The notes: generated from the letters alone by a model not told the origin. Counted from the stretch's first letter, positions 21,212 through 63,257 are shown. The stretch is DNA of 64,000 bases from Candidatus Woesearchaeota archaeon (GCA_964622835.1 CAZUSA010000001.1:50831-114830), one strand, 5' to 3'. Translations and numbers: made by a program.

Positions 21212-22288
21212 TTATTTTTTTCGTTGTGGTCGTTCTGGTATGCCTTGTATTTCATGTGAATATAACACAAATGATAATATTATGAGTAACATGACTGCCA
21301 GGACAACAAGGCGGAAGAGTGTTTTATTTAACAGTGGACCTACTTGTCCTGGCACTGCAGAAAGTGCTTGTTGTTGGGTTCCTACGGTTAAGATAAGAGA
21401 GTCTGTGAGTGTTAGTCCACCTCGACGAACTTCAAGGCCTAAAACATAGGCACCGTCTTTGATGGTTTCAGGTAATTCTAATGTTTTATCAAAAGAGGCT
21501 CCTGATGCTATATTCATTGTTTGTATTGTTCTAAGAAGTTCATTATTTTCATAGTCTTTGATGAAGTAGACAAGTTCTATGATTCCAGGGTTAAAATTAG
21601 AAAGGTATGTGTGGACAATAAACGGTGACCCTGGTGCAACAATAGAGAACATCTCGGGTAATGTAAGTTGTACTGATCCTGTAAGTTGCTTTGTACTAAT
21701 ATCTAATGAAAAAGGAATGAAACCTTTAATACCCACATCTTTGAGAAGAATAGTACCAGTAACAAGTCCGGGAGAACTACCTGTAAAGGTAACAACAATA
21801 TCATCTTCGTCATCACCACCATCTTCACCGTCATCAGGTTTAAGGACAATAACTCCTGGTTTAACTTTAACATAATCTCCCATTGTTGTAACTATCTGTA
21901 AAGAGATAGTTGTATCTAAAACATTTTGCACAGTTACTGTATATGTTTGTTCTTCTCCATGATAAAGGTCAAGTGCAAAGAGATCTGTAGATAGTTTTAA
22001 TGAACTGCCGCCAGTTGTAAGAACTTTTGTACTTTCTGCAGCAGCTTCGGTAGTTGTAGTTCCAGCATCACCTGTTGCTGTCCCATTAAGTATTTTAAGG
22101 GAGACTTCTGCAACACCACTTCCTGTCATTTCTGCTATGGATTGGTCCATTTCTTCTTGACCAAGTTTGTTAGATAATTTTGCTGTGTTAACGAGTAAAA
22201 GAAGTATGTAGACTAACAGTAATAATGTAATAATGTTGGTTCGTTGGTAGAAATTTCGTGGTGAAATCCTCTTTTTTTGATCCCTCAT
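21212..22288 (-). CDS. Cell-surface protein with N-terminal signal anchor and C-terminal TM anchor
   Basis: N-terminal hydrophobic IITLLLLVYILLLLV, C-terminal LFRLVVLAVMLLIILSFVLY plus basic tail. Thr/Gly-rich linker and acidic DDGEDGGDDEDD patch. Confidence 0.5.
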   Translation of the reverse strand: MRDQKKRISPRNFYQRTNIITLLLLVYILLLLVNTAKLSNKLGQEEMDQSIAEMTGSGVAEVSLKILNGTATGDAGTTTTEAAAESTKVLTTGGSSLKLSTDLFALDLYHGEEQTYTVTVQNVLDTTISLQIVTTMGDYVKVKPGVIVLKPDDGEDGGDDEDDIVVTFTGSSPGLVTGTILLKDVGIKGFIPFSLDISTKQLTGSVQLTLPEMFSIVAPGSPFIVHTYLSNFNPGIIELVYFIKDYENNELLRTIQTMNIASGASFDKTLELPETIKDGAYVLGLEVRRGGLTLTDSLILTVGTQQQALSAVPGQVGPLLNKTLFRLVVLAVMLLIILSFVLYSHEIQGIPERPQRKK

Positions 22289-22321
22289 ACTGTATGTAAG
22301 TAAAAATACTTATTAAATAGT

Positions 22322-22726
22322 TTACGATACACGTCGATAGAGGACAATGAGTTTACCTTCATAGAATCCCTCTTCAGCTGCCAAGGGTATTTGGAGGCGT
22401 AGTGGAAGTTTTTGTATTGTTCCTGCAGGAAGAAAGAATGTGTGGTTTTCTATGAAAATGTGGGGTATGTTTTTGAGAAAAATTTCAACGATAGCATCCT
22501 TGTCTGTATGTAATGTGAGTATCCTTTTCATATGTATGTTTGGTGTAACGGTTCCAAAATGGATAGCATCATCATCAAGATTAAAACCAGGTTCTCTCCC
22601 AATAGCGTAGTCTACGGGATAAACAGTGTATCCAAAAACAGTTGTTGAAAAATAAATGAATAATCCAAGAAAGACTATAAAAAAAGCAAGGAGAATAACA
22701 AGAAGAAAAGTATGGTGCCGTTTCAT
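22322..22726 (-). CDS. Small membrane-anchored protein (N-terminal TM), hypothetical
   Basis: MKRHHTFLLVILLAFFIVFLGLFIYF followed by a soluble domain. Confidence 0.4.
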   Translation of the reverse strand: MKRHHTFLLVILLAFFIVFLGLFIYFSTTVFGYTVYPVDYAIGREPGFNLDDDAIHFGTVTPNIHMKRILTLHTDKDAIVEIFLKNIPHIFIENHTFFLPAGTIQKLPLRLQIPLAAEEGFYEGKLIVLYRRVS

Positions 22727-22729
22727 CTG

Positions 22730-23914
22730 TTACTTCCCAAAGAGTTTTTTCATTTTTTCTTCACTATTTCTTTTAGTAGATTTTTTTCTTGCAAAGGACA
22801 TCCAAAAAATATCAGCAATGATAAGTAAAACAATAAGGAATGCTATGAATATTTCTGTTGAAAAATATAAATTGTCTCGTAGTTTAAGCGATAATGTTTC
22901 TTGTTTAGTAAGATCGTCATAGTAAACATTAACAATAACATCATAAGACCCAGCAGCAATGTCTGTAACATCTAAGAATAATGGTAGGGTAAATGTTTCT
23001 AAAGGGTTGATATTTTTTGTTTGTGAAAAAAATCTATTTGTTAGGGGTACACTATCACGTGCAAGGTAGGCCTCTACGTAAACATCCTCAACGACACGAT
23101 TCCAATGATTTTTTAGAGTTAAAGAAAACTCTTGTATACTTCCTGCAAGAAGCATTTCTGTATAGTTAATAACACTTATGTCTTTGTAACCAACAGTTAC
23201 AGAAATATCTTTCCTAGGTGTCGGAATGCCATCATAGTTTATTGAGGTAACAACAAAGTATTCTCCTGTACCAAGTTCTGTACTATTAATGGCAAGAGAT
23301 ATAGTTTTTTGATTATTTACGACAAGAGAAACTGGTTGTCCTTCATAAGTTCCAAGTGATTCTTCCATAGCAGGAGTATGATAAAACGTAACAGATGGTT
23401 TTACAGTAAAAATATTTTCACTCCCTTTATTATGCGCTGCAAAATTAAAAAGAATATTTTCACCAACATTAACATTCTGTGTAGTAACAGTGTATGCTAA
23501 GTATTTTTCCGGATAGGGAACTTCAACAATAATTTTAGCAATCACATTGAGCACTGCAGCCACACCACCACCTGGTGGTTCATTTTTAACATGAACAATG
23601 ATTTGATTGGGCCCAGGTGTTGGATGTTCATACGGCAACTTATACGTAATAGTAAAAGGTTCTGAACTCAACGGACCAATAGGAACAGAAGTGTCCACAA
23701 TGGTAAAATATTCTGCAAGTTCACCTTCAAGATATAATGATGCAAGTAAAGGAGATTCAACGGTGTTAATAACGCGCATAGATGTCGTACCTTCAGCAAG
23801 AGGGGCATAGGGCAAATAGAGATAGTCTGGTGAGAGCCCTATTCCAGAAACGAAAGGTAAAACAAACAACAAAGCACAGAGAATGAAACACCACTTTTCC
23901 ATAAAAGATCTCAT
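22730..23914 (-). CDS. Cell-surface protein, beta-sandwich (CARDB/S-layer-like) repeats, signal peptide + C-terminal TM anchor
   Basis: Signal MRSFMEKWCFILCALLFVLPFVSG; C-terminal IFIAFLIVLLIIADIFWMSF plus K/R tail. Confidence 0.5.
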   Translation of the reverse strand: MRSFMEKWCFILCALLFVLPFVSGIGLSPDYLYLPYAPLAEGTTSMRVINTVESPLLASLYLEGELAEYFTIVDTSVPIGPLSSEPFTITYKLPYEHPTPGPNQIIVHVKNEPPGGGVAAVLNVIAKIIVEVPYPEKYLAYTVTTQNVNVGENILFNFAAHNKGSENIFTVKPSVTFYHTPAMEESLGTYEGQPVSLVVNNQKTISLAINSTELGTGEYFVVTSINYDGIPTPRKDISVTVGYKDISVINYTEMLLAGSIQEFSLTLKNHWNRVVEDVYVEAYLARDSVPLTNRFFSQTKNINPLETFTLPLFLDVTDIAAGSYDVIVNVYYDDLTKQETLSLKLRDNLYFSTEIFIAFLIVLLIIADIFWMSFARKKSTKRNSEEKMKKLFGK

Positions 23915-23936
23915 GAAAGGATGTTTATAAGCCTAA

Positions 23937-24635
23937 CTACGTATGACCAAGTGAAGTCACAAGGAATTCAAGAACATCAGAGTAGGTTGTATTTGTTCCA
24001 ACGGCAGAACTAATATTGAAGAATATAGAAACGTTGATTTCATCGTGTGCATTAACATAAGAAAGGTTTGGACAAACCATCTGATGATTATTAGACATTG
24101 TTGTACCAAGAGGTTCTTGAACGGTAGAGTTTGCTTGGTGGGAGAATCCACCAGCAGTGCCATCATCTTCATCACTACAGGACGTATTAAATAATTCACC
24201 AGTTGTTGTTCCACTTGCATTCTTTACAGCAAAGCTATAGTTGACAGCAGAGTTATCAACACCCAAGAGTTCATTTGGTGTACTTCCATTAAGGGTCACA
24301 TTAACAAAACTGTTACCATCATTACGTAAGCGGAATGGTCCGGGATTATCAAAACCACCTGGATTTGCACCACCATTGTCACCGTCACTGGTATTAATAG
24401 GATCACCTGCATCTTGGATAGTGCCATCACCAAAGTCAATGGTATCAACGACGAGCGTTACTGCAACACTTGGTTCAACAGTAATATTAACATACCCATA
24501 GGTTTGGTTGCTTGATGCTAAACCGGTTATGCCACCAACGCCACCAATTTTTAAGAGAATAACAGAAAGACAACCAAGGGTAATAAGAAACGTAAATAAT
24601 CCTGTAATTAAGAGAGATCTATCTGAGACGTTCAT
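23937..24635 (-). CDS. Membrane-anchored extracellular protein (N-terminal TM; Gly/Asn/Asp-rich), possible pilin-like
   Basis: MNVSDRSLLITGLFTFLITLGCLSVILL N-terminus followed by Asp/Gly/Asn-rich region with N-x-S/T sequons. Confidence 0.45.
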   Translation of the reverse strand: MNVSDRSLLITGLFTFLITLGCLSVILLKIGGVGGITGLASSNQTYGYVNITVEPSVAVTLVVDTIDFGDGTIQDAGDPINTSDGDNGGANPGGFDNPGPFRLRNDGNSFVNVTLNGSTPNELLGVDNSAVNYSFAVKNASGTTTGELFNTSCSDEDDGTAGGFSHQANSTVQEPLGTTMSNNHQMVCPNLSYVNAHDEINVSIFFNISSAVGTNTTYSDVLEFLVTSLGHT

Positions 24636-24859
24636 ACACTACCACCTTCATGAGATATTTCAGATTGTATCGTAAGAGCAACTCGGGCACCTTCTTCAGG
24701 AACTGCTCCAGAAAAAGTATTTGATGTACGATATGATTGACCTACAGTTTCTACTGTACTAAGCACTGTCCATGTTACTAATAAACTAACAAAAAGCATC
24801 ACGACCATGAGCACAAGAAGGATTTCACGGCGCACCTCACTCTTTCTTCCCTTAGGCAT
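24632..24859 (-). CDS. Small membrane protein (75 aa; charged N-terminus then hydrophobic helix), possible pilin-like
   Basis: MPKGRKSEVRREILLVLMVVMLFVSLLVTWTVL. 4-nt overlap with the downstream gene. Confidence 0.35.
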   Translation of the reverse strand: MPKGRKSEVRREILLVLMVVMLFVSLLVTWTVLSTVETVGQSYRTSNTFSGAVPEEGARVALTIQSEISHEGGSV

Positions 24860-24891
24860 GAAATATTGTATCCATTACCCTATATAAAGAT

Positions 24892-26064
24892 TTAGATTCG
24901 CCGTTTATGGAAATGAAGGAACCATAAAATATTAACAATGATAAGTATACCTAGGATAGTAAGAATACGTGTTGTTTCTTTTGCTGTTTGTGGGGGTTGG
25001 TTAACGGTTGCACGAAATTGTTTGTTATTAACGGTCATTGCTGCTGTTCGTTCAAAGGATTTACTATCATATTGTAATAAAATATTAGCTGTATATGTTC
25101 CTTCTTTCAATGATGTGGTATCCCAATAAGAGAGTAATGTTCCTTTTTTACGTGCCCCAAGTGTAATAGATGGTGTTTGTATAACGGAAACAACAGTTCC
25201 TTGACTATCTGAAAAGGTTATGTGCGCTTGAACTGAAGAAAATTGTTCGTTCCATAAACTTTGTACAGGAATGGTTAACGCAACAGTTTCGCCTAGTGTA
25301 AAATCCTTAACAACAAGATCTTTAATTGTTATTTTTGGTTTACCTACAGTAAAGGATGTTTCTGTTGATGCAGTAGTTTCATCTGTTGTGACTGTTGCTT
25401 GTGCCGTATACACACCTGGTGCTGCTGCTTCTGGCCAAGTAAACCGTGCTTTACCCATTGTTTTAGGAGGAATAGTATGAAGTGTTTCTGTAAAATCAGT
25501 AAGGATAGTGTTTGCATCATCAACAAGTGTAAGATGCACAACAGGATTATGTAATGATTCACTACCGCTGTTGTATATAGGAACAACAAATAATACATTT
25601 TCTCGTGTGTCTCCTTCATGGACTGAAATAGTTATTGTTGCATGTTCTCCCGGATAGGGTACAGTAATACGTAAAGATGTTATGATGTTTATAGTGGTAA
25701 GAACACTTTTCCCCTGTGCTAATGGTGAGAGTTCTTGTTGCACAGAAAAAGTAATATCATGATCACCTGGTTCTAAAACACCATGAGGGATGCTTACAGC
25801 ATATTTTACAGGTGTTTCAGAAAATCCTTCTGATGTTGTAAAATCCGTAACGGGTAAAGAAACATATGATGCAAGCGGTCCTGTTGCTGTTACAGAAAAG
25901 GATTGGGATCCATCAGGAATACGCACAGTAAATGATGATTGGTGTGTAAAAGGCACAGTGTAGTCTACTAATTCTCGTGCAGGAATAACAGTAAATGCGT
26001 GAACACTTGTTACAAGAAGTAAGAGTAAACAACAAAATAAAAATATTCGTTTATTATTATTCAC
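24892..26064 (-). CDS. Cell-surface protein, beta-sandwich repeats, signal peptide + C-terminal TM anchor
   Basis: Signal IFLFCCLLLLLVTSVHA; C-terminal ILTILGILIIVNILWFLHF plus KRRI. Directly abuts the giant gene (stop/start 26064/26065). Confidence 0.5.
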   Translation of the reverse strand: MNNNKRIFLFCCLLLLLVTSVHAFTVIPARELVDYTVPFTHQSSFTVRIPDGSQSFSVTATGPLASYVSLPVTDFTTSEGFSETPVKYAVSIPHGVLEPGDHDITFSVQQELSPLAQGKSVLTTINIITSLRITVPYPGEHATITISVHEGDTRENVLFVVPIYNSGSESLHNPVVHLTLVDDANTILTDFTETLHTIPPKTMGKARFTWPEAAAPGVYTAQATVTTDETTASTETSFTVGKPKITIKDLVVKDFTLGETVALTIPVQSLWNEQFSSVQAHITFSDSQGTVVSVIQTPSITLGARKKGTLLSYWDTTSLKEGTYTANILLQYDSKSFERTAAMTVNNKQFRATVNQPPQTAKETTRILTILGILIIVNILWFLHFHKRRI

Positions 26065-29000: not shown

Positions 29001-32000
29001 TATCCACATCAAACGGATAGTATGTCCAATTGTAGTAGATGGTACTGCCATTAGTTACATTACCTTTGTAGAGAAGGTCATCTTCTCCCGGAACGCCTGT
29101 ACGGTTACCAAATATAGTTACAGTTACATTATCACGCGGATTTGTATCATCAGTAACGTTTACTTCTAAGGTAACATTTGTTGTACCTACGGCAAAGACA
29201 GTGAGATTAACAGGTGTTTGGAGATCGATATTTGGTACTGAATTTAATGTTGCTGCTGAGGTTGGCCATTCTACAACTTCAACTCTGTATGTTCGTGTTT
29301 GTCCAGTATCGCTAACCATAATTTGATATTCTGATGTTGTTACCAACATAAGGCCTATGGTGTATCTTAGGAAAGAGGTACCTGTTCCTGTTGAATAACT
29401 TGACCCAAAAATAGAAGAAACAGTAAGATCATCGAGTGTTTTTCCAATGGAAGCATTAAGATATATTGGTTCTGTTCCGCCACTTTGTGTTCCTGATGAC
29501 CGGGTAACAATTGCAGGCGTCCCATCTGTTTGTGTATTTTCAATGATATAGGCGACAGCTGTTGTTGTGGCGGCAATAGCTGAACCACCATCCACCAAAA
29601 AGGTTAAGGTATTATCAGCAGAAAAATAAACTACATGTCCTTGCTGATTAATATTATCTTGGATATTACCCATACTTTTTTGTACATGAATAAATGTTTT
29701 AGCCAAATCATTACCTAAACCTGTAGTTTCATTTTCATGCACACCTGCAGTAGTATACCCGTGTTGTACACGTTCTACATCCCAGTTATCACCTGTAAAT
29801 TCAACCACTGCGAAACTAAGTCTATTCGCATCACTGCCATGTTCACCCCGAGTAAATCTTGTGACATTTAATTGGGATGTAAATTCGTTTGTTATAAATG
29901 CATGAGTGTTATAGTCTGTTCTACCTGTGTCCCTATTTCCTTGTCCTGTAATGAACGGTACGATTTGTGAGTGATTTACATAGTTACTAATATCAGCAGT
30001 ATCCACGAACATGGTTGTTGATCCAAAGTCCAGGGTGTTTCTTGCTCTCACTATTATTTCATTATCTCCACCAATAGGTCCTATATATTCTATAATTTCC
30101 CAGTTAACATAGGCACTTGTAGCTGCTCCAAATCGCGAGAAAGTTACGTTTTCTGTGAGGTTGTTTGCGCCATCATGAAAAATATAAACAGCCACATCAT
30201 CAGCATTTGCCAGACCTCCAGTAATATTATCTCCTGAACTTACATGGTTGGTATTGGTTATTCTAATAAAGGCGTAGGAATTATTTGCAGGTGCATCATA
30301 GTCTGTGCCTGCATGAAGGGTGTGGTTAGTAACCCCTGTAATAGAAAAATCTCCTCGTTGTATTTTGAAGTCTGTTGCTGAGTTGTATGCATAAGCAGTA
30401 TTACTGCCAAAGTCAAATTTGAGTGTGTGTTTTCCTGGTTGGAGTACTTGACTTACTTCTTGTGATTCTGCACCACATTGGTAATTTTCAATCACAACAC
30501 TGCCATCTATCCATTCGTATTCTTTAACATTATCACCACAAATAATTTGTAAGAATTTGAGTTGTTCTGTCGTCCCATAGGGTAACCATGTTGTTCCATC
30601 TACAGCTGTTATATGGAGATCTGCTTGTCCTGTTGTTTGGAATTTAACAACCCAGTTCCCACTGACTTTAGGATATGATTGTACAGTAATGATCGTTAAG
30701 CCTACGTGGAATGTTTTGTTAACTTCTGGTGAAAGTGATGTTGTCCATGTTATGGTGTCAATACGGCCATTACCATTGGTATCTAATGGCGTGTAGGGGT
30801 ATGATTGTGCTGTACCATTTTCATCAACACCATAGGTGAGACTAATATCTTCTGGTAAGAGTTCTGGTACGCCTGTGCTTACAAGGACTGCATCAAAGGA
30901 CTCTGGTGTTGTAACCATGATTTCTTTCCCATAAGAATCGGGTATTTCTTGTGTTGTTGGCCCAGGTAAGTCATAAGATACAAAAGCTTCTGTAACTTCA
31001 TTTTCAATGATGATTGTTTGTTCTGTTCCTTCAGGTAATGGTATATCTTCAACGGGTTCTTCTGTTCCATTAAGAGTTGTATTGGTTTCATTAAGCAAAT
31101 CAACACCAAGAGGTTCTCCAGTAAGTGTATCAACAGCAAGTCCTGTAATGGAACTATCTGTAAGGGCAGCTACTGCTTGTTCAATAAAAGATTGTTCTTC
31201 AACAACAAGGGTATCAAGACGACGATAGCGATTATCTGCAAGAAGTTGTTTTGCTTGTGTTGATTGTTTTTCTTCATATAATATACTGGTGACATTAATG
31301 TTTGTTGCTTCTGGCGGTAATATAACAACAGCATCTGTTGTTGGTATATCAAAGGTAACATGGTTTGTCCATCGTACAGGTTTGTTTGTTTCAACGATGT
31401 CATATGTTACACTACTGTTCGCAGTACCCTTTGTTATGTTACGTTCAACAACACCTTCAATAAACGTATCATCAACGGTAAGTAACAGTGATTGATCATG
31501 GAGGTCAATAAGTGATAAACCATAGTTTAGTTCGGGATGACTTGTTGTTTCAACAGTTACTTGTTCTAATGAAAGGATGGCATCTTTAACGTAGACTTTG
31601 AGGGTAAAGTCTGTTCCAAGCGTATCACGAAGGTTACATGCATCTCCACAGAGTGATGTAAATGATGCAATGCTCATATTGGTAATATTTTGTGTTGTCA
31701 TAAAATCAATGAGTGGATCATACGGCACGTCTTCTACAACAGCTTCTTCTTTTATGACTTCAATTATTTCTTCAAGTGGTTCTTCTGGATCAAAGATACC
31801 TTCTGCAAATGCCATGACAGAACTCGTAATATTTTGTGTGTAATTAACCGTACCATTGAGTGCTGCTGTATAGGCCCATTGGCCAAGACAAATACCCACT
31901 TCAATATCCCAGAATGTACAGCGGTAGAGATAGTCACTTTGTGTAGGTGCTGTAAAGGTTAATGAGGTATTTGTACTATTGTATGCACTAATATCAAATC

Positions 32001-32910
32001 CAAAGACGTTAGTAAAACTTACATTATCTGGTTCTATGAGGCCTGCAGAGGAGTATTCTTGATAGACTATCCAACGTTTGTCTGTGGTAGGAACGTGGAT
32101 TGTTTCGATAAATGATTGGTTAAAGTGTATGTCTGTCGTTTCATTATATTCAAAGACTTTGAACAGATGGGAACGTCCAAGAATATCAACAATGCGTCTC
32201 CCTTTGAGAAGTCCTTGAGAAAGTAATGTGGAATAGTATTCTATTTCTTCTTCAATAATTGTTTCTTCATCTGTTATATTCACTATTTCACCAACGGCTA
32301 ATCCACTCACTGCTTTGAAGAAGGTTGAAATATCTACATCAAGTGCATCGCTATCAAATAATAAGAATGTATCTTTAGATGCATCATCTGTTAAGAATAA
32401 TTTTACGTTACCTCCCTGTTGTGATGCGACACGTCCACTAATACTGAGACTTTCTAACGAGGTTATACCACTTACTTCAAGATAGTATTCTGTACTTTTT
32501 GTAATGATTGTTTGAAGTGGATGTTCATGAATGACAACGACTTCTTCTTCTTCTTGGAGAATAACATTTCCTGTTACAAGGTTTCTTGAATTTGGAAAGC
32601 TATCATAGGTTGCTGAGAAGATACTAATAAAAACAAAGAAGAAAAACAATGTCATAATGATTCGATCGTTTCTCGTAACTGTACGCGAAAAATGATGACG
32701 TCGTCGGACAAGTGCGTGTTTAACGGTTGCACTACTCCGTTGTGGAACAGGTGTTGTTTGGTGTTTTCGTAGAAGAGCACGTTTCTTTTTTGCTGCTGTT
32801 GGTGTGCGTCCAAGATACACAGTGCGAACTTTACCACCAGGTAGTCGAATACTATCGTAGTAATATGGTCCTACTTTTTTTCCGTTCTTTGTAATGTACT
32901 TTGTGTACAA
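26065..32910 (-). CDS. Giant (2281 aa) surface protein: basic N-terminal tail, one TM helix, large extracellular region with two LamG (concanavalin-A-like) domains and Cys-rich C-terminal modules, with many N-glycosylation sequons
   Basis: Uninterrupted 6.8-kb ORF. TM IIMTLFFFFVFISIF. LamG_3-like blocks at about aa 1340-1520 and 1690-1840, each ending in DEV-x-(I/V)-x-NRS(L/F)T. Cys-rich GCGVFFCDG...CVNDSGGSCD near the C-terminus. Confidence 0.7.
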   Translation of the reverse strand: MYTKYITKNGKKVGPYYYDSIRLPGGKVRTVYLGRTPTAAKKKRALLRKHQTTPVPQRSSATVKHALVRRRHHFSRTVTRNDRIIMTLFFFFVFISIFSATYDSFPNSRNLVTGNVILQEEEEVVVIHEHPLQTIITKSTEYYLEVSGITSLESLSISGRVASQQGGNVKLFLTDDASKDTFLLFDSDALDVDISTFFKAVSGLAVGEIVNITDEETIIEEEIEYYSTLLSQGLLKGRRIVDILGRSHLFKVFEYNETTDIHFNQSFIETIHVPTTDKRWIVYQEYSSAGLIEPDNVSFTNVFGFDISAYNSTNTSLTFTAPTQSDYLYRCTFWDIEVGICLGQWAYTAALNGTVNYTQNITSSVMAFAEGIFDPEEPLEEIIEVIKEEAVVEDVPYDPLIDFMTTQNITNMSIASFTSLCGDACNLRDTLGTDFTLKVYVKDAILSLEQVTVETTSHPELNYGLSLIDLHDQSLLLTVDDTFIEGVVERNITKGTANSSVTYDIVETNKPVRWTNHVTFDIPTTDAVVILPPEATNINVTSILYEEKQSTQAKQLLADNRYRRLDTLVVEEQSFIEQAVAALTDSSITGLAVDTLTGEPLGVDLLNETNTTLNGTEEPVEDIPLPEGTEQTIIIENEVTEAFVSYDLPGPTTQEIPDSYGKEIMVTTPESFDAVLVSTGVPELLPEDISLTYGVDENGTAQSYPYTPLDTNGNGRIDTITWTTSLSPEVNKTFHVGLTIITVQSYPKVSGNWVVKFQTTGQADLHITAVDGTTWLPYGTTEQLKFLQIICGDNVKEYEWIDGSVVIENYQCGAESQEVSQVLQPGKHTLKFDFGSNTAYAYNSATDFKIQRGDFSITGVTNHTLHAGTDYDAPANNSYAFIRITNTNHVSSGDNITGGLANADDVAVYIFHDGANNLTENVTFSRFGAATSAYVNWEIIEYIGPIGGDNEIIVRARNTLDFGSTTMFVDTADISNYVNHSQIVPFITGQGNRDTGRTDYNTHAFITNEFTSQLNVTRFTRGEHGSDANRLSFAVVEFTGDNWDVERVQHGYTTAGVHENETTGLGNDLAKTFIHVQKSMGNIQDNINQQGHVVYFSADNTLTFLVDGGSAIAATTTAVAYIIENTQTDGTPAIVTRSSGTQSGGTEPIYLNASIGKTLDDLTVSSIFGSSYSTGTGTSFLRYTIGLMLVTTSEYQIMVSDTGQTRTYRVEVVEWPTSAATLNSVPNIDLQTPVNLTVFAVGTTNVTLEVNVTDDTNPRDNVTVTIFGNRTGVPGEDDLLYKGNVTNGSTIYYNWTYYPFDVDSDMIFGYHFDMREDHGENLSRIKDWAENYNGTINESLVTINFSNAILGGNVELNGNNEFILVDDCDFECYKTRNATYMAWVRTNSVAAGQGVVMGGWSNSFTVGLVIYRNAAALAVGTDGNVATLNTADFFTVGEWVHLALVQYDNKTLRLYRNGVFQEVNTYSDITDASSQEDFVIGKLEREGGNWWGGGMDEVYVINRSLTEAEIVNYLDLDNGQHYWFAEANDSAAAGSDNFNNTPTWEFLIGGNGPQVTELIEPVNNSNFTEVGPILLNASVVDPEGDGLEVRIYATNGTVSTAIATDDLVFYNTSVPNNSQSAYNITAPLLDLEDDVTRLLAHFDENSDFSNATNAYNFANGSKNGTVLGSAKVVKNEGKLAGAYKGEGTDDEYVDFGTGNAALIGKDNFTYLMWVNPDDTSGSEGLLATHNGATNVGFALKKNSAALEIYGNAEIITVSSFFTAGEWVHIGVVVNTTGGVAIYKNGNLEQEGTLSTIGTGNALIVGNSRDPTNNFVQGWQGYIDEVAIYNRSFTADDINDSYRLRSGTYYWNVNVTDSANNSDVNGTFLFRVDRQPVVTNITISPTAANLTNTTADLNCSFVVIDDLDAEVTAHVTFRKEDEVQTTTTVTAATGASLVGSDILPSFNTAHFDNWSCNVTVLDNASTASLANESVNTTIENYIPHYPTLTYPINDTDTVNFTFIWKPDNTYGQLPPEDAGCGVFFCDGNHSDVDGDNVTYYLNMTCVNDSGGSCDKHFAFQVRENITNCDTNSNGIFDLEDNCTYTFENESVYFSDDNYHYEWFVQAGDPYENASVHYGQSTVNRTIVNFLVEAGITLLNNTVAFGRVLESQFNTTEACTIGGSGPGACPLYLENTGNARVTLNFTGGATGLWDSVSATDLAYFSFKVANGTESNDAYDEDNSLLVYTALPAEDAQLIVIERFEYMEGNDEATIHVNVTVPTGEPEGDKNITLNITIWYPGVT
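27391..27843 (-). repeat. LamG-like domain repeat 2 inside giant surface protein (about aa 1690-1840)
   Basis: NFTYLMWVNPDDTSGSEG...GEWVHIGVVVNTTGGVAIYKNG...IDEVAIYNRSFTADDINDSY. Parallel in sequence to repeat 1. Confidence 0.5.
28351..28893 (-). repeat. LamG-like domain repeat 1 inside giant surface protein (about aa 1340-1520)
   Basis: FECYKTRNATYMAWVRTNS...GEWVHLALVQYDNKTLRLYRNG...MDEVYVINRSLTEAEIVNY. Confidence 0.5.
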
Positions 32911-33003
32911 ACGGTCACCCCGATGTTAGAAATGGTAATTCCCCAATAGTGTGTGGTTGCACTACGGTCTTATAAAAGTTATGGTACTCTAAAAAAGGGT
33001 GAT

Positions 33004-34548
33004 TTACGCTTCAAGAAGGTAAGTAAGATGAACATCACCATTACCAGACCCACTATTAGGAACTGCACGGACATATTCTAACAGGGCACTGTCTTTACCA
33101 TTAAGGGTTATACGGAAATATCCTGGAGTTTTTGTTCCAATTATTTGTGTACTAAAGCTTGGTATGTTGTATGGTGGCCAGGTCATTTCAGCAGGGTAGG
33201 GAGGAATACCAATCCATCCAGCACCAATACCAGAAGTACCACCAATAACATGTAACGTCGTCATATCACCTTGAGCATTGAGTTTTTCTCCAATACTTGC
33301 AACATGGTCGTTACCACTGAAGAATATTTGTGCACCATAATCTATCATCATTTGTTCTATGATGGCTTGTTCTCCCTTGTAAATACCACGTGGTGTATTA
33401 TCGTCTGTTGCTTTGATAGATCCCCTACCTTTGTAGAAGTTGGAACTTGTTGATCCCTGTTCACCGCCAACTAAGTGTTCTGCAAAGATGAATTTCCATT
33501 GTTTATTTGAACGAGCAAGTGTTTGATTAAGCCATGCTAATTGTGCAGGACCAAGTGTCCAATCATCTGCAACAGTTGGACTAGTAAGTGTATTTCTCAT
33601 GACATCAATAACAACAACCTGTAAGTCTCCTACTTCAAAGGAATAATATCGTCCTTCATCTTCCCCACCATTATAGACGTCAACAGCATTAACAAGATGA
33701 TTTAATCGTGCGTTTTTTCCCCAGAGAAGTTTATTGCCACCATAACCAGCTTCACCTTCATGATCACCAAGAACATAAACCATAGGTGTTTCTTTAAATA
33801 AATTACCAAGAACTGCAGGTGAAAAGATTTGGTCATAATGTAAATCTGCATCTTTCTGCGAACTTGCACCAGCAGAAGATACATTTTCTCCATGAACAGT
33901 ACATGCAGGGCAGCCATTTGGTGTACAGGTTATCATTGCCCAGTCACCACCAAGAACAACAAACGAAAGATCATCACTAATCATATTTGCTATATTTGCT
34001 TGTAGTTTGGAAAGTTTTGTTGTATCAGTTCCACACGTTGCTGTCGCCCAAAGGGTGTATGCATGTGTATCAGGCACAAAACCAAAAGTAAACGTTGTGT
34101 CTTCTACGTGAGATAATGTTCTAAACGTGTGGATTTTACGAGCACCAAAGGCATTGTCATCAGGAGTTTTACAATGAACTTGATATTCATATTCCTGAGC
34201 AGATTTAAGACCTGTAAGTGTGAAGTGTAGGAGTGCATTACCTGTTGAAGATTGTACAGTTGTTTTTTGTTGTCGAAGATCGTTTGGAGATTTATAGGTT
34301 ACATAAAAATCACTTGCTTCAGCGGGAAGAAGTGTTAGTTCTACACTTGTTGGTGTTGGAAAAGATAAGATTTCTTCATTGTAAAAGGTAACATCACATT
34401 CACCAACAGGATCTGGTGCAAGACCTCTAATCATAACATCGTTACGAACAGTTGGAGGCCCACTCATTACAAGGACAGTGGTTACTAAGAATAAAAATAA
34501 TGCTGTTAAAATAAATCGTTCGCTTTTTTTCATGGTATACTCACTCAC
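33004..34548 (-). CDS. Extracellular calcineurin-like metallophosphoesterase (purple-acid-phosphatase-like) with N-terminal signal anchor and FN3-like domain
   Basis: Signal anchor FILTALFLFLVTTVLVMSG. Metallophosphatase motifs VVLGGDWA, YVLGDHEGE (GNHE-like), FFSGNDHV, HVIGGTSGIG. Confidence 0.6.
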   Translation of the reverse strand: MSEYTMKKSERFILTALFLFLVTTVLVMSGPPTVRNDVMIRGLAPDPVGECDVTFYNEEILSFPTPTSVELTLLPAEASDFYVTYKSPNDLRQQKTTVQSSTGNALLHFTLTGLKSAQEYEYQVHCKTPDDNAFGARKIHTFRTLSHVEDTTFTFGFVPDTHAYTLWATATCGTDTTKLSKLQANIANMISDDLSFVVLGGDWAMITCTPNGCPACTVHGENVSSAGASSQKDADLHYDQIFSPAVLGNLFKETPMVYVLGDHEGEAGYGGNKLLWGKNARLNHLVNAVDVYNGGEDEGRYYSFEVGDLQVVVIDVMRNTLTSPTVADDWTLGPAQLAWLNQTLARSNKQWKFIFAEHLVGGEQGSTSSNFYKGRGSIKATDDNTPRGIYKGEQAIIEQMMIDYGAQIFFSGNDHVASIGEKLNAQGDMTTLHVIGGTSGIGAGWIGIPPYPAEMTWPPYNIPSFSTQIIGTKTPGYFRITLNGKDSALLEYVRAVPNSGSGNGDVHLTYLLEA

Positions 34549-34631
34549 AGTCCAGAAGTGTTGTAAAGTAGTTTATAAAGATTTATCTAATAAAGAATAA
34601 AAAAAAGAGAAAAAGAGGGGTTACCTCTCTT

Positions 34632-35951
34632 TTATTTTGGGTAGTATTGGTAGTAGGTTTGACCTTCTAAGGTTGATGTTTCTTCATCGTCAGTGCTGTT
34701 TATTTTTCTAAACGCAATGATTAATGCCAAAACTACTAAGACAATTACTAAGATGCCGAAGATTACAGCAAGGACAGTTTTTAGACCTTCACTTGTTGAT
34801 GCTTCTTCTGCTTCACCAGTAACGCGTGTGGTAAATGTTAGTTCTTGAAGAACGTCTGTTCCTACCATGACACGTGCGACCCATGTGTGTGTTCCTGTTG
34901 ATTCTCCGTCAAATGGTGTAACGGAAATAGTTACTTCGCCTGTTGCGTCAGGTGTAATACTCAAGAAACTTGGTTGTACACTTGCTTCGCCCCATGCGGA
35001 AACGCCATCAACTTGAACAGAGTAAACGCCGATATCTTCGCCAAGGTTTGCGAGCATAACGTTGTAGTTAGCTGTTGCGCCTGGTGCGACAGATTTGGAG
35101 TTTGAGTCACTGTTTACAATCGTTTGCACTGCATTTGATGTTTCAGTTCCTTGAACATTTACGTTAAGGGATTGACTCAGGAAGCTGTATCCACGATTGT
35201 ATTCAACGTCAACACGTACTTCGTAGGTTCCTGTAGCTGCGTCGCTTGGGATCCGTAAGAGTAAGTCTATTTGTTGACTGTTGTCATTTTTAATATGATC
35301 TTCAGCATCTTCCTGTACTTCAGTATTTAGCTCATCAATGAAATTGACGGTGCTGATACCTAAGTCGGGAATAGATACGGTTACTTTGACGTCGTTTTCT
35401 TCTTTGTCACCAAGGTTTTCTAGACGTACAGTTGCAAATAAAGAGTTACCTGCTGCTATAGTGCTACTTGGGTTAAGAAGGACATCAAAGATGCTTAGAC
35501 CGTGACGTTGTTCATCAATATGAAGGGTTATTTCTTCGGTGAGTTCAGTATTTTTGTCTGAAAGCTCAATACGAAGTGTATAATCTTCTGATGCGTCAAT
35601 ATCTTCTGGAATAGTTAACGATAATGTTTTCTTGTATGTTTTACCAGCAACAATATCGAATTGTGAAGTTGTGTCGAATATACTTCCGTATTCGTATCCG
35701 TTGATACGTGCGGAAAGTACAACATCATCTGCACCTGTAGTATCTGCTACAATACGTGCTTCAATGGTGATTGTTTCACCACGTTGTACATCGAGTACAG
35801 TAATACCATCATCTACAATAAGATCATCGATCTCAATGCTGGCAAATTCTAGGTCACTTGCAGCAGCCTGTACTGGTACAGCCATGCTTAAAGCGCCGAA
35901 AAGTGCCACTAAGACGAATAATACTGCGTGTATTTGTCTTGTGTTATTCAT
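34632..35951 (-). CDS. S-layer-like surface protein (signal peptide, beta-sandwich repeats, C-terminal TM anchor)
   Basis: Signal HAVLFVLVALFGALSMAVPVQAAAS; C-terminal LKTVLAVIFGILVIVLVVLALIIAFRK. Confidence 0.5.
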   Translation of the reverse strand: MNNTRQIHAVLFVLVALFGALSMAVPVQAAASDLEFASIEIDDLIVDDGITVLDVQRGETITIEARIVADTTGADDVVLSARINGYEYGSIFDTTSQFDIVAGKTYKKTLSLTIPEDIDASEDYTLRIELSDKNTELTEEITLHIDEQRHGLSIFDVLLNPSSTIAAGNSLFATVRLENLGDKEENDVKVTVSIPDLGISTVNFIDELNTEVQEDAEDHIKNDNSQQIDLLLRIPSDAATGTYEVRVDVEYNRGYSFLSQSLNVNVQGTETSNAVQTIVNSDSNSKSVAPGATANYNVMLANLGEDIGVYSVQVDGVSAWGEASVQPSFLSITPDATGEVTISVTPFDGESTGTHTWVARVMVGTDVLQELTFTTRVTGEAEEASTSEGLKTVLAVIFGILVIVLVVLALIIAFRKINSTDDEETSTLEGQTYYQYYPK

Positions 35952-36139
35952 TTGTTTGTAACCCCCCTAAAAGGTTTGTATGTCAATTCCTCGAAAGAAA
36001 TTGTTACTATTGTCCGGTTAGAATCGCTATATAAACCTTTCGATGGTAAATACATATTCCGTCATTTAAGAATGGTAATACACGTTAGCGACAGTGCCTA
36101 CCAAACATAGAGACCCCACACCTAGGGATATTCCGAACC

Positions 36140-36147
36140 TTTTTAAA
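36140..36147 (+). promoter_or_regulatory. Archaeal TATA box (TTTTTAAA) about 29 nt upstream of tRNA-Trp
   Basis: A/T box at the expected distance from tRNA position 1 (36173). Confidence 0.35.
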
Positions 36148-36172
36148 GAATCCGCCTACAATTCAGAACGAA

Positions 36173-36246
36173 GGGGACATAGCATAATCTGGTTAGTGTT
36201 GCCGCCTCCAGAGCGGCGTGTCCAGGTTCAAATCCTGGTGTCCCCA
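36173..36246 (+). tRNA. tRNA-Trp (anticodon CCA), intron-less, no encoded CCA
   Basis: Acceptor GGGGACA/TGTCCCC, anticodon stem GCCGC/GCGGC with loop CTCCAGA, T-arm CCAGG-TTCAAAT-CCTGG. 74 nt. Confidence 0.8.
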
Positions 36247-37732: not shown

Positions 37733-38119
37733 CTATTCTTCTTTGGCACTAAACGTAGAAGCAATATCAATGACGTATTTCCCATCATCTAACTTATACA
37801 CCAAGGGCTCACCTTTAAACAAGTCAACTAAATCAATCTCAAATTTCCCTGGTTGATTCACCCGTATTGATTCAAGATCTAAGACAACTGGATGATCTTT
37901 CGCTACTTCCTTTTTGGTCTTATCACCAATAAGTTCTAAAGCATCACGTTCTATTTGTTGTTTATCTTCTGTTGTTAAGTTCGCCGTAAAGGATTGAGAT
38001 TCTTGTACGGATTGTTCTTTCATAAAGAAGAAAAATCGTCCACCACAATCACATCCTGCCAATATTTCACGTGAACCATCAGCATACAACTTTGAACAAC
38101 GAACACATTGGTGTGGCAT
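37733..38119 (-). CDS. Zn-ribbon protein (DUF2072-like), archaeal conserved
   Basis: MPHQCVRCSKLYADGSREILAGCDCGG (C-x2-C...C-x-C). Confidence 0.5.
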   Translation of the reverse strand: MPHQCVRCSKLYADGSREILAGCDCGGRFFFFMKEQSVQESQSFTANLTTEDKQQIERDALELIGDKTKKEVAKDHPVVLDLESIRVNQPGKFEIDLVDLFKGEPLVYKLDDGKYVIDIASTFSAKEE

Positions 38120-38581: not shown

Positions 38582-38602
38582 TTCACACCACCTCTTGTTT
38601 TA

Positions 38603-63222: not shown

Positions 63223-63257
63223 AGAATAATACACAAAAAAGGTCTTTAAAAAGGTTG

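What the first reader, a model, noticed from the sequence alone, without database searches (positions are those of the whole stretch)
21212..35951. 15-kb single-strand cluster of nine cell-surface protein genes bounded by smc and tRNA-Trp
- Seen in sequence: nine consecutive minus-strand genes, several abutting or overlapping (24632/24635, 26064/26065).
- Five genes (34632.., 24892.., 22730.., 21212.. and the 2281-aa giant 26065..32910) encode proteins with an N-terminal signal/anchor plus a C-terminal TM anchor with basic tail. Three are short N-terminally anchored proteins (75, 134, 232 aa). One is a PAP-like metallophosphoesterase.
- Dozens of N-x-S/T sequons are present throughout.
- Inference: this is a cell-envelope/attachment locus (S-layer plus giant adhesin plus accessory subunits). 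Such loci in DPANN-type symbionts are candidate host-interaction systems.
- The small N-anchored proteins could be pilin-like subunits, but no assembly ATPase or polytopic platform protein is present here.
- The cluster ends 220 nt from tRNA-Trp, a classical integration hotspot. No integrase is seen.
Basis: partly seen in the sequence, partly recalled or inferred. Interest (0 to 1): 0.55.

Follow-up and report, generated by a model that had tools for sequence, protein, structure and literature searches.

The report
Archaeal WxL-like surface adhesin gene cassette
A small symbiont-type archaeon carries a conserved seven-gene cassette that probably builds a surface attachment device (a giant sugar-binding adhesin, a pilin-like glycoprotein and membrane anchors), and part of it is related to the 'WxL' surface complexes so far described almost only in Gram-positive bacteria.

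Summary
The nine minus-strand genes exist as described, between smc and tRNA-Trp. Two details are wrong. The 2281-aa giant has no C-terminal membrane anchor. N-glycosylation sequons are enriched only in the giant and the 232-aa protein.

The real unit is a seven-gene cassette (21212-32910): giant, A(390), s75, g232, B(394), c134, d358. The first six genes keep this order in all ten cassettes examined (window included). g232 identity falls to about 25%, and three of the ten cassettes are not next to smc. The phosphoesterase is not part of it, and the S-layer-like gene is only a frequent neighbour.

- **A and B:** remote homologues of bacterial WxLIP/CscA (hhalign 96%, E 2.6e-9).
- **g232:** founds an unannotated family (459 representatives at 50% identity). 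Its AlphaFold model (pLDDT 85) resembles donor-strand-exchange pilins best.
- **Giant:** ends in a g232-type domain and carries two LamG lectin domains.
- **s75:** equals g232's N-terminal anchor plus first strand only.

Best reading: an archaeal counterpart of the Gram-positive Csc/WxL complex, held together by β-strand complementation and possibly forming a short fibre with a giant tip adhesin. The WxL domain itself is absent. The type IV pilus and tRNA-island ideas are not supported. All of this is in silico.

The parts
26065..32910 (-). Giant adhesin (2281 aa, TTG start). The cytoplasmic N-terminal module, single TM, about 2100-aa ectodomain and C-terminal g232-type domain are listed as separate parts below. 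There is no C-terminal TM. It has 89 sequons.
   Evidence: ORF. One TM only. Sequon excess 89 versus 32.6±5.0. The N-terminus is conserved in 8 orthologues, which supports the TTG start.
32662..32910 (-). Giant, aa 1-83. Conserved cytoplasmic module 'MY(K/T)KYIxKxGKKVGPYYYDSIRLxxGKxxxVYLG' followed by a basic stretch, lying before the TM (aa 84-102, nt 32605-32661). Function unknown.
   Evidence: Alignment A5 shows 15 invariant positions. No Pfam or PDB match.
27397..28608 (-). Giant, aa ~1435-1838. Two concanavalin A-like/LamG lectin domains with an Ig-like spacer.
   Evidence: Pfam Laminin_G_3 at E 3e-37, two stretches, best at aa 1690-1838. Sialidase N-terminal lectin-like hit at aa 1435-1511.
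26068..26562 (-). Giant, aa ~2117-2281. C-terminal domain homologous to the g232 β-sandwich.
   Evidence: hhalign of the g232 family against giant C-termini: 98.4%, E 6.9e-15. An HMM built from giant C-termini hits g232 at E 2.3e-7. The g232-family HMM hits the C-terminus of the L025 giant at E 1.2e-20. Bridging paralogues occur in L016.
24892..26064 (-). A (390 aa). WxLIP/CscA homologue 1: Sec signal peptide (…VHA|F), three Ig-like domains, C-terminal TM and a basic tail.
   Evidence: Pfam WxLIP_HBD 27.2 bits, cutoff 28.9. The family profile's best PDB hit is EfmWxLIP1, E 9.4e-5. hhalign against six plasmid WxLIPs: 96.2%, E 2.6e-9 over 217 columns. TM.
24632..24859 (-). s75 (75 aa). Carries only the anchor and strand: N-region, TM, (S/T)G-x-A motif, one conserved β-strand (ARVALTIQ) and an acidic tail.
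   Evidence: An HMM of the first 58 residues of the g232 family hits s75 end to end (E 2.3e-8). It is the only other hit among all window ORFs. Orthologues are present in all ten cassettes.
23937..24635 (-). g232 (232 aa). Founder of an unannotated family: conserved leader (aa 1-40: N-region, TM, ITG-x-A), N-terminal strand (YVNITV) and a pilin-like β-sandwich. It has 14 sequons and conserved Cys pairs.
22730..23914 (-). B (394 aa). WxLIP/CscA homologue 2, a paralogue of A with the same architecture.
   Evidence: BLASTP A versus B, E 4e-10. Joint alignment A3. Same evidence as for A.
22322..22726 (-). c134 (134 aa). N-terminal TM anchor plus one Ig-like (PapD/ASH-type) domain related to domain 1 of A and B.
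   Evidence: TM. The L016 and L024 orthologues hit the A/B HMMs at E 1e-5 to 3e-7, in domain 1. Weak ASH/HYDIN Pfam hits.
21212..22288 (-). d358 (358 aa). g232-type leader (TM, TG-x-A, strand), a Ser/Thr-rich linker, Ig-like domains and a C-terminal TM with a basic tail. HMM-confirmed in L025; called at the same position in seven further cassettes; no match in L016 or L024.
   Evidence: TMs. The leader HMM hits d358 orthologues at E 2e-6 to 1e-5. It shares a domain with g439 (E 4e-4). The L025 orthologue matches at E 7e-39.
33004..34548 (-). g514. Secreted or anchored PhoD/purple-acid-phosphatase-like metallophosphoesterase. A neighbour, not part of the conserved cassette.
   Evidence: Pfam PhoD 27.6 bits (cutoff 27) and Pur_ac_phosph_N 21.9 bits. 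No such gene was listed in any related cassette.
34632..35951 (-). g439. S-layer-like protein: signal peptide, CARDB/NPCBM_assoc-type Ig domains and a C-terminal TM. A frequent but not constant upstream neighbour, distantly related to A and B.
   Evidence: NCBIfam NF033506 'putative S-layer protein' 59 bits, cutoff 110. Pfam NPCBM_assoc E 2e-11. The A/B HMM hits it at E 1.4e-4. Present in L002-5, L007 and L015. Replaced by other genes in L012, L017 and L025.
36173..36246 (+). tRNA-Trp (CCA). It marks the boundary only; there is no evidence of an integration site.
   Evidence: ARAGORN and Rfam. Related loci have no tRNA-Trp here.
17784..21209 (+). smc, convergent with d358 (2-nt gap). It is a conserved neighbour in eight of the ten cassettes (window included).
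   Evidence: Pfam. Synteny.

Best explanation
Genes 21212-32910 form a conserved cassette. I read it as an archaeal counterpart of the Gram-positive Csc/WxL cell-surface complex, adapted to a wall-less Woesearchaeota/Nanoarchaeota-type cell.

Proposed mechanism:
- All seven proteins are exported through Sec.
- Two type-I membrane proteins (A, B), homologous to WxLIP/CscA, sit at the membrane. c134, a single Ig domain tethered by an N-terminal TM, sits there with them.
- They hold two heavily N-glycosylated partners that share one β-sandwich domain: the small g232 and the giant adhesin, which ends in a copy of that domain.
- The giant projects two LamG lectin domains plus about 1300 residues of unannotated ectodomain towards a host cell or a glycan surface.
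- Contacts are made by β-strand complementation in trans. g232, s75 and d358 share one N-terminal module (TM, (S/T)G-x-A, a strand with alternating hydrophobic residues). s75 is nothing but that module, so its strand must bind a partner, most simply the groove of a g232-type domain.
- g232 may stack head to tail into a short stalk or fibre, with the giant at the tip and s75 or d358 as the membrane anchor.

Shown: gene order conservation, the homologies, TM and sequon patterns, the fold class of g232.

Inferred: physical complex, strand complementation, signal-peptidase cleavage at G-x-A, polymerisation, adhesive role.
For: - The first six genes keep the same order in all ten cassettes (window plus nine related contigs). 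g232 identity falls to about 25-32%. Three cassettes are not beside smc. Family membership was checked with HMMs.
- A/B are homologous to WxLIP: hhalign 96.2%, E 2.6e-9 over 217 columns. The best PDB sequence hit is EfmWxLIP1, E 9.4e-5. Pfam WxLIP_HBD hits 6 of 17 members.
- The giant's C-terminus is a g232-type domain.
- The g232 AF2 model has pLDDT 85.4. Its best structural matches by two methods are donor-strand-exchange fibre subunits: TLP-1, CsuA/B, CanX, AbpA, TasA, PapA, FimA/F/G, the Saci_0406 thread and Tafi.
- s75 and d358 share the g232 leader plus strand.
- Sequon excess occurs only in g232 and the giant. The g232 family mostly has an even number of Cys and a median of 11 sequons. 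Both fit the distal, exposed parts.
- The four Csc component types are mirrored here: CscA with a C-terminal TM, small CscB, large CscC with a ConA-like lectin and the shared C-terminal domain, and the very short anchored CscD (PMC1534035; PMC9772566).
- AlphaFold2 predicts strand insertion of WxLIP into WxL in the bacterial system (PMC10599100).
- Haloarchaeal tafi are an archaeal precedent for a LamG tip adhesin plus pilin-like subunits plus a membrane terminator (PMC11821415).
Against: - g232 shows no detectable sequence homology to the WxL domain: hhalign 1-3%, E 0.015-0.04. PF13731 hits none of 147 members.
- The giant's C-domain contains the equivalent of the first strand in cis, so trans complementation is not required by the sequence.
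- The giant has its own N-terminal TM and a conserved cytoplasmic module. It may be anchored without any partner.
- A/B homology to WxLIP rests on profile methods. The single-sequence Pfam score is just below the curated cutoff.
- There are no expression, localisation or interaction data.
- No complex prediction could be run.
Confidence: 0.55

Rival explanations
1. It is a true donor-strand-exchange pilus. g232 polymerises into a long shaft. The giant is the tip adhesin, incorporated through its C-terminal pilin-like domain as FimH and PapG are. s75 or d358 terminates and anchors the fibre. A, B and c134 act as membrane-tethered chaperones that cap subunit grooves before assembly. This is a stronger version of the best explanation.
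For: - DSE pilins dominate both fold searches.
- After the predicted G-x-A cleavage site, g232 carries a conserved strand with alternating hydrophobic residues.
- s75 is a strand-only protein.
- The adhesin has a C-terminal pilin-type domain.
- TATA-like boxes directly upstream of s75-g232 could raise subunit expression.
- Archaeal DSE fibres are known: threads, ABP, cannulae and tafi.
Against: - Structural scores are low, and no filament has been seen.
- Known archaeal DSE fibres assemble without chaperones.
- The giant has the first strand in cis.
- A/B resemble WxLIP, not PapD-family chaperones, at sequence level.
Confidence: 0.25
2. The genes encode independent surface or S-layer-type glycoproteins that are merely co-located and co-inherited, with no defined complex.
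For: - Most parts are generic Ig-like domains.
- g439, A, B and d358 share CARDB-like domains and C-terminal TMs.
- Eight of the ten cassettes lie in one conserved chromosomal neighbourhood, so part of the synteny could be inherited.
Against: - The order is kept at about 25% identity and in three contexts away from smc.
- Start and stop codons are tightly coupled.
- One domain is shared between the small and giant proteins, and one leader-plus-strand module is shared among three proteins.
- s75 has no fold of its own.
- The homologous bacterial system is a co-expressed cluster.
Confidence: 0.12
3. The architecture is the same, but the role is capture of polysaccharide or glycan substrates (nutrient acquisition, as first proposed for Csc clusters) rather than attachment to a host cell.
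For: - LamG/ConA-like lectin domains are the only recognisable functional domains of the giant.
- Csc clusters were proposed to act in carbohydrate acquisition (PMC1534035).
- A secreted phosphoesterase lies next door.
Against: - No glycoside hydrolase or transporter is present in any cassette examined.
- Genome-reduced Woesearchaeota-type archaea are thought to depend on partners (general knowledge, not tested here).
- Later work on WxL clusters favours adhesion.
Confidence: 0.2
4. It is a type IV pilus-like system, with the small N-anchored proteins as type IV pilins.
For: - The N-terminal hydrophobic helix of g232 is unusually conserved and resembles pilin α1 in composition.
- The AF2 model gives a confident helix at aa 5-29.
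Against: - A class III motif occurs in only 12 of 147 members.
- A conserved (S/T)G-x-A site follows the helix, as for signal peptidase I.
- No ATPase, platform or prepilin peptidase gene was listed in any of the ten cassettes, and none was found among the window ORFs scanned.
- No archaellin or type IV pilin appears among the top structural hits.
Confidence: 0.03
5. It is a horizontally acquired island integrated at tRNA-Trp.
For: Only the proximity: the tRNA lies 221 nt from the last gene.
Against: - GC content is 0.38, against 0.37 in the flanks.
- No integrase or repeats were noted.
- One relative (L005) keeps the same flanks on both sides, OapB/OapC/GTPase and smc/polyprenyl synthase/RNase HII, and seven related contigs keep smc on the downstream side.
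- The tRNA is not conserved there.
Confidence: 0.03

Closest known systems
Csc / WxL cell-surface clusters of Bacilli (CscA/WxLIP = DUF916-DUF3324-TMH; CscB small WxL; CscC large WxL; CscD small LPxTG protein)
   Same: - A and B are sequence homologues of WxLIP and share its signal peptide, Ig domains, C-terminal TM and basic tail.
- A small protein consists of one β-domain, and a very large protein ends in the same domain.
- ConA-like/LamG lectin domains occur in the large protein.
- A very short anchored protein is present.
- The genes form a tight operon-like cluster.
- In the bacterial system, β-strand insertion between WxLIP and WxL is predicted.
   Different: - There is no WxL domain: no Trp-x-Leu motifs, no PF13731 hit, hhalign not significant.
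- There is no LPxTG motif, sortase or peptidoglycan. Anchoring is by TM helices.
- There are two WxLIP paralogues, each with three Ig-like domains.
- Extra components c134 and d358 are present.
- The giant has a cytoplasmic N-terminal module and a TM.
- The distal parts are heavily N-glycosylated.
- The host is an archaeon, whereas 91% of known WxL proteins are in Firmicutes (PMC9772566).
Haloarchaeal Tat-fimbriae (tafi: TafC tip with a LamG domain, TafE adapter, TafA shaft, TafF membrane terminator) and DUF1102/TasA-like archaeal fibres (ABP, cannulae)
   Same: - It is an archaeal gene cluster with a small pilin-like β-sandwich subunit.
- It has an adhesin that combines a pilin-like domain with LamG.
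- It has a membrane-anchored component proposed to terminate or anchor the fibre.
- Donor-strand exchange is proposed.
   Different: - There is no sequence membership: no TasA, DUF1102 or Taf family hit apart from a 19.7-bit LamG-region hit to TafC.
- Export is by Sec, not Tat.
- The cluster has no dedicated signal peptidase.
- The pilin-like domain of the adhesin is C-terminal, not N-terminal.
- The adhesin is about six times larger.
- WxLIP-like proteins are present here and absent from tafi.
Chaperone-usher pili (Fim, Pap, Csu)
   Same: - The adhesin has two parts, with the pilin-type domain at the C-terminus (as in FimH and PapG).
- The best Foldseek hits include PapA, FimA/F/G and CsuA/B.
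- Ig-like accessory proteins begin with a PapD-like 'G(I/V)SPxR' strand.
   Different: - There is no outer membrane and no usher.
- The accessory Ig proteins are membrane-tethered and WxLIP-like, not PapD-family.
- Similarity is at fold level only (TM-score 0.3-0.5).
TLP-1a/b environmental fibrils (CryoSeek, PDB 9ikj/9ikk)
   Different: There is no sequence similarity. The closest TLP-1 models are from Flavobacteriales (PMC11494351), so this is a different family and probably a different organism group.
Sulfolobus acidocaldarius threads (Saci_0406)
   Different: There is no sequence relation. No isopeptide-bond evidence was looked for. The gene neighbourhood is different.

Membership tests
Csc/WxL cluster | WxLIP/CscA protein: signal peptide, DUF916 (PGBD), DUF3324 (HBD), C-terminal TM helix | tested here: met
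   - The A/B profile against six annotated WxLIPs gives hhalign 96.2%, E 2.6e-9 over 217 columns.
- The best PDB hit is EfmWxLIP1, E 9.4e-5.
- WxLIP_HBD hits 6 of 17 members and WxLIP_PGBD hits 1 of 17.
- Signal peptide and C-terminal TM are present.
- The homology is remote: the single-sequence Pfam score of 27.2 bits is below the 28.9-bit cutoff.
Csc/WxL cluster | Small protein made only of a WxL domain (two Trp-x-Leu motifs, PF13731) | tested here: not met
   - PF13731 hits none of the 147 g232-family members.
- hhalign against 5 and against 125 WxL sequences gives probability 1.4-2.9%, E 0.015-0.04.
- There is no WxL motif in alignments A1 and A2.
- Whether the PDB WxL chain (9i25_A) was in the fold libraries is unknown. 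It is not among the top 50-60 hits.
Csc/WxL cluster | Large multidomain protein whose C-terminal domain is of the same type as the small protein | tested here: met
   Giant C-terminus against the g232 family: hhalign 98.4%, E 6.9e-15; HMMER E 2.3e-7 and 1.2e-20. The shared domain is not WxL.
Csc/WxL cluster | Short LPxTG-anchored protein (CscD) and peptidoglycan attachment | tested here: not met
   s75 has no LPxTG motif. It is anchored by an N-terminal TM. Peptidoglycan binding is not testable with these tools.
Donor-strand-exchange pilins (chaperone-usher, TasA-like, threads, tafi) | Ig-like subunit with an incomplete fold that is completed by the N-terminal strand of a neighbouring subunit | tested here: inconclusive
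Donor-strand-exchange pilins (chaperone-usher, TasA-like, threads, tafi) | Sequence membership in a known pilin family (Fimbrial, SCPU, TasA/Peptidase_M73, DUF1102, Taf) | tested here: not met
   No Pfam or NCBIfam family was found for g232 or its 147 relatives. There is no PDB sequence hit.
Chaperone-usher pathway | Outer-membrane usher and a periplasmic PapD-family chaperone | tested here: not met
   No such genes were listed in any cassette. A/B/c134 are Ig-like, but they match WxLIP or ASH families only weakly and do not match PapD.
Archaeal type IV pilins | Class III signal peptide ([KRDE][GA] followed by the hydrophobic helix) and a nearby ATPase or platform gene | tested here: not met
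   The motif occurs in 12 of 147 members. No T2SSE/T2SSF-type gene was listed in any cassette, and none was found among the window ORFs scanned. The genome-wide presence of PibD was not tested.
Archaeal S-layer protein (NF033506) - g439 | Score at or above the curated cutoff | tested here: not met
   59.3 bits against a cutoff of 110. It is 'S-layer-like' only.
PhoD-like / purple acid phosphatase metallophosphoesterase - g514 | Pfam gathering score | tested here: met
   PhoD 27.6 bits against 27, which is marginal. Pur_ac_phosph_N 21.9 bits, below 30. Catalytic residues were not checked.

The most novel reading that the evidence does not exclude
The cassette encodes a previously unseen attachment organelle of Woesearchaeota/Nanoarchaeota-type episymbionts. 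It would be a glycosylated donor-strand-exchange fibre built from a new pilin family (g232). It would be tipped by a 2000-aa-class lectin adhesin and anchored by a 'strand-only' membrane peptide. Assembly would use membrane-tethered WxLIP-like chaperones. This would tie the Gram-positive WxL/Csc complexes and archaeal DSE fibres to one ancestral strand-complementation system for cells without an outer membrane.
Probability: 0.25. Interest if true: 0.85.

Novelty: new variant of a known kind. Interest (0 to 1): 0.62.

Why it matters
How small-celled DPANN-type archaea hold on to their hosts is largely unknown, because almost none are cultured.

- The cassette is tightly linked and carries a giant lectin-bearing protein. 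It gives a concrete, testable candidate for that contact apparatus in Woesearchaeota/Nanoarchaeota-type lineages.
- Its pilin-like subunit family alone has 459 representatives at 50% identity and no annotation at all.
- It extends the WxLIP/CscA family, so far treated as a Gram-positive speciality tied to peptidoglycan, to wall-less archaea. This argues that the core job of WxLIP is to hold partner proteins, not to bind peptidoglycan.
- The 'anchor plus strand only' protein is a simple, experimentally tractable clue to assembly by strand complementation.

Tried and rejected
- **First AF2 run on g232:** with 17 close homologues it gave an unusable model (pLDDT 47.7). It was rescued with a 147-sequence alignment.
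- **Fold libraries:** afdb50 was unavailable, so the g232 model could not be compared with predicted WxL structures.
- **Family scans of g232:** Pfam and NCBIfam found nothing for g232 or its family. A PDB sequence search with the family profile gave only noise.
- **g232 as a divergent WxL domain:** not supported, even after collecting 120 more WxL proteins. Only the last ~30 columns align ('i.L.IP…Y..tltf' against 'L.VP…Y..TLTW.L'), which is not significant.
- **Single-sequence search with A (g390):** it found only 2 proteins, because A evolves fast.
- **GTDB genome scan with the g232 profile:** only 3 loci. Contexts were obtained through exact-protein look-ups instead.
- **Class III (type IV pilin) signal:** rejected.
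- **tRNA-Trp integration:** rejected.
- **The giant's cytoplasmic N-terminal module:** no match anywhere.
- **Literature:** searches for DPANN with donor strand, or Woesearchaeota with LamG, found no prior description in the held library. No paper for PDB 9i25 was found.

Full report
**1. The observation**

The nine minus-strand ORFs are at exactly the stated coordinates.
- smc (17784-21209, +) is confirmed by Pfam.
- tRNA-Trp is at 36173-36246, 221 nt beyond the last gene.
- Junctions are tight. g75 and g232 overlap by 4 nt, the giant and g390 abut, and every gap between 21212 and 32910 is 33 nt or less. The gaps around the phosphoesterase are 83 and 93 nt and contain T-runs and TATA-like boxes.
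- A hydropathy scan confirms N-terminal hydrophobic segments in all nine proteins. It confirms a C-terminal TM plus basic tail in g439, g390, g394 and g358.

- The giant has a single TM (aa 84-102) and no C-terminal anchor. Its orthologues also lack one.
- Sequons are not spread throughout. They are about 3-fold enriched in g232 (14 against 4.7±1.9) and the giant (89 against 32.6±5.0). No shuffle out of 2000 reaches either value. The other seven proteins are at or below expectation.

**2. The organism and the true unit**

Close homologues of g232 come from MAGs labelled Nanoarchaeota, Woesearchaeota or Nanoarchaeia. The window's other genes are ordinary archaeal housekeeping genes.

Exact-protein look-ups of g232 relatives gave nine further distinct cassettes. 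In all ten (window included) the order is giant, A (~400 aa), small (~75 aa), g232-like (~225 aa), B (~390 aa), c134 (~136-148 aa).
- A d358 homologue follows in eight of them.
- Three cassettes (L016, L024, L025) are not next to smc. Their g232 is only about 25-35% identical to the window's. Family membership there was verified with HMMs.
- No gene like the metallophosphoesterase g514 was listed in any related cassette.
- The S-layer-like g439 is a frequent but not constant upstream neighbour.

So the conserved unit is 21212-32910.

The tRNA-Trp 'hotspot' idea has no support.
- GC content equals the flanks.
- One relative (L005) keeps both flanks, OapB/OapC/GTPase on one side and smc/polyprenyl synthase/RNase HII on the other, and seven related contigs keep smc on the downstream side.
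- No related locus has tRNA-Trp at that site.

**3. The parts**

*A (g390) and B (g394).*
- They are paralogues (E 4e-10) and align over their full length.
- Both have an ordinary Sec signal peptide, three Ig-like domains, a C-terminal TM and a basic tail.
- Pfam gives WxLIP_HBD just under its threshold for A (27.2 against 28.9 bits). It hits 6 of 17 family members.
- The family profile's best hit in the whole PDB sequence set is E. faecium WxLIP1 (E 9.4e-5).
- hhalign against six annotated WxLIPs taken from Gram-positive plasmids gives 96.2%, E 2.6e-9 over 217 columns.
- I therefore accept A and B as remote homologues of WxLIP/CscA.

*g232.*
- It has 17 close homologues. A profile search found 459 representatives at 50% identity with E ≤ 1e-3, nearly all full-length proteins of 200-260 aa.
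- No Pfam, NCBIfam or PDB sequence match exists.
- The family shares a strikingly conserved leader of the form M-x-x-I-S-N-K-T-L-A…, then a TM, then (I/L)(S/T)G-x-A. It is followed by a strand with alternating hydrophobic residues (G-x-V-N-V-T-V).
- 118 of 147 members have the (S/T)G motif, with the Gly at a median position of 39. Ala is the commonest residue two positions later (68 members). This fits a signal peptidase I −3/−1 site.
- Cys counts are mostly even, and the median is 11 sequons.
- With 147 sequences, AlphaFold2 gave a confident model (pLDDT 85.4, pTM 0.72): a helix at aa 5-29, a flexible linker, then a β-sandwich.
- TLP-1 is an environmental fibril with no sequence relation to g232.

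*The giant.*
- It begins with a conserved cytoplasmic module found in all orthologues, which supports the TTG start. A basic stretch, one TM and an 'L-(V)-T-G-N-V-I' motif follow.
- No known family matches that module.
- Only aa ~1435-1838 has recognisable domains, namely two LamG/ConA-like lectin domains.
- Its last ~165 residues are a g232-type domain: hhalign 98.4%, E 6.9e-15. An HMM of giant C-termini hits g232 at E 2.3e-7. The g232-family HMM hits the L025 giant C-terminus at E 1.2e-20. L016 has bridging paralogues and a split giant.

*s75.*
- An HMM of only the first 58 residues of the g232 family hits s75 end to end (E 2.3e-8). It hits no other ORF in the window.
- The alignment covers the N-region, the TM, 'FSGAV' (matching 'ITGFA') and the strand 'ARVALTIQ' (matching 'GTVNVTI').
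- s75 is therefore the g232 leader plus first strand, with no domain behind it.

*d358 and c134.*
- d358 orthologues carry the same leader plus strand (E 2e-6 to 1e-5). Ig-like domains and a C-terminal TM follow.
- c134 is an N-anchored single Ig-like domain related to domain 1 of A and B. It gives only weak ASH/HYDIN/PapD-like Pfam hits.

**4. How it most likely works**

The component list mirrors the Gram-positive Csc/WxL cluster one for one. That cluster has a membrane-anchored CscA/WxLIP and a small protein made of one domain. It also has a large protein with ConA-like lectin domains that ends in the same domain. Its fourth part is a very short anchored protein with only 40-60 exposed residues (PMC1534035; PMC9772566; PMC10599100). 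For the bacterial system, AlphaFold2 predicts that a WxLIP β-hairpin inserts into the WxL domain.

In the archaeal cassette the shared domain has a pilin-like fold. Three proteins share one 'anchor plus strand' module, and one of them is nothing else. The simplest reading is a surface assembly held together by β-strand complementation in trans.
- A, B and c134 sit at the membrane.
- g232 and the giant, the only sequon-rich and therefore presumably exposed proteins, form the distal parts.
- s75 or d358 supplies membrane-tethered strands.
- Whether g232 polymerises into a real fibre with the giant at the tip, in the manner of FimH or TafC, or forms a stoichiometric complex, cannot be decided here. 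I give the fibre version about 0.25.
- The haloarchaeal tafi system shows that archaea do build such fibres: a LamG tip adhesin, pilin-like subunits and a membrane terminator (PMC11821415).

Counter-evidence:
- The giant has the first-strand equivalent in cis and its own TM.
- The fold scores are weak.
- Nothing is known about expression.

**5. Comparison and membership**

The cassette contains true homologues of WxLIP, but the WxL domain, a defining feature of WxL clusters, was tested and is absent. LPxTG is absent too. I therefore do not file it as a WxL cluster. I file it as a WxL/Csc-like system with a different partner domain.

It is not a member of any known pilin family by sequence. It lacks an usher and a PapD-type chaperone. 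It fails the type IV pilin tests (and no ATPase or platform gene).

The held literature contains no description of this cassette. WxL proteins are reported as 91% Firmicutes.

**6. Verdict**

This is a real, conserved, operon-like cassette of seven surface-protein genes. I rate it a new variant of a known kind: a Csc/WxL-type complex and/or an archaeal DSE fibre.

Interest is moderate to high. It offers a concrete candidate for the host-contact apparatus of Woesearchaeota-type archaea. It defines a large unannotated pilin-like family. It extends WxLIP beyond peptidoglycan-bearing bacteria. All functional statements are inferences from sequence, synteny and one predicted structure.

Noticed in passing
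window 32662-32910 (-), giant aa 1-83: There is a strongly conserved cytoplasmic N-terminal module, 'MYKKYIxKKGKKVGPYYYDSIRLxxGKxKxVYLG' plus a basic stretch, ahead of the TM of a giant surface protein. It has 15 invariant positions in 8 orthologues and no Pfam or PDB match. Its role is unexplained; targeting, regulation or a permanent anchor are possibilities.
   Followed up: partly
window 37733-39367 (-): OapC, OapB (origin-associated proteins) and a GTPase lie just beyond tRNA-Trp, and the same trio flanks the cassette in L005. A replication origin may be close by. It was not searched for.
   Followed up: no
window 39884-42847 (-); L002-L004, L007, L014 smc: RtcB carries an intein. The smc gene of several relatives is 1686 aa, with an intein plus a LAGLIDADG domain, whereas the window's smc (1141 aa) is intein-free.
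   Followed up: no
window 49533-51431 (-) and 59185-63270 (-): Two large ORFs (632 and 1361 aa) have no Pfam match at all. They do not hit any of the cassette HMMs.
   Followed up: partly
window 22289-22321, 23915-23936, 24860-24891, 32911-33003, 34549-34631, 35952-36172: TTTATA(T/A)A-like boxes sit about 15-25 nt before the start codons in the short gaps before s75, B and d358, and about 30-75 nt before the starts of g514, the giant and g439. This suggests leaderless transcripts and internal promoters, for example directly before s75-g232. T-runs follow g439 and g514.
   Followed up: no
window 34632-35951 (-): The S-layer-like g439 is hit by the A/B (WxLIP-like) family HMM at E 1.4e-4 over domains 2-3 plus the TM. 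It also shares a domain with d358 (E 4e-4). The S-layer-like protein and the cassette's anchors may be one superfamily.
   Followed up: partly
L016 6129-9746; L024 8800-9534; L025 8312-9718: The cassette varies between lineages. L016 and L024 carry a second g232 paralogue between A and s75. In L016 a separate 418-aa protein carries the giant's C-terminal region with the g232-type domain. L025 has a radical-SAM/B12-binding gene inserted between A and s75.
   Followed up: partly
window 33004-34548 (-): A secreted PhoD/PAP-like metallophosphoesterase sits next to the WxLIP-like genes. A 2025 paper (PMC12537917) lists metallophosphatases and DUF916 proteins as frequent neighbours of bacterial Ang-2 metal-binding domains. 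This may be coincidence, because no such gene was listed in the related cassettes.
   Followed up: no
window 8720-10792 (+): A single 690-aa ORF fuses an asparagine synthase-like amidotransferase (GATase_7 + Asn_synthase) to a diphthamide synthase domain (Diphthami_syn_2).
   Followed up: no
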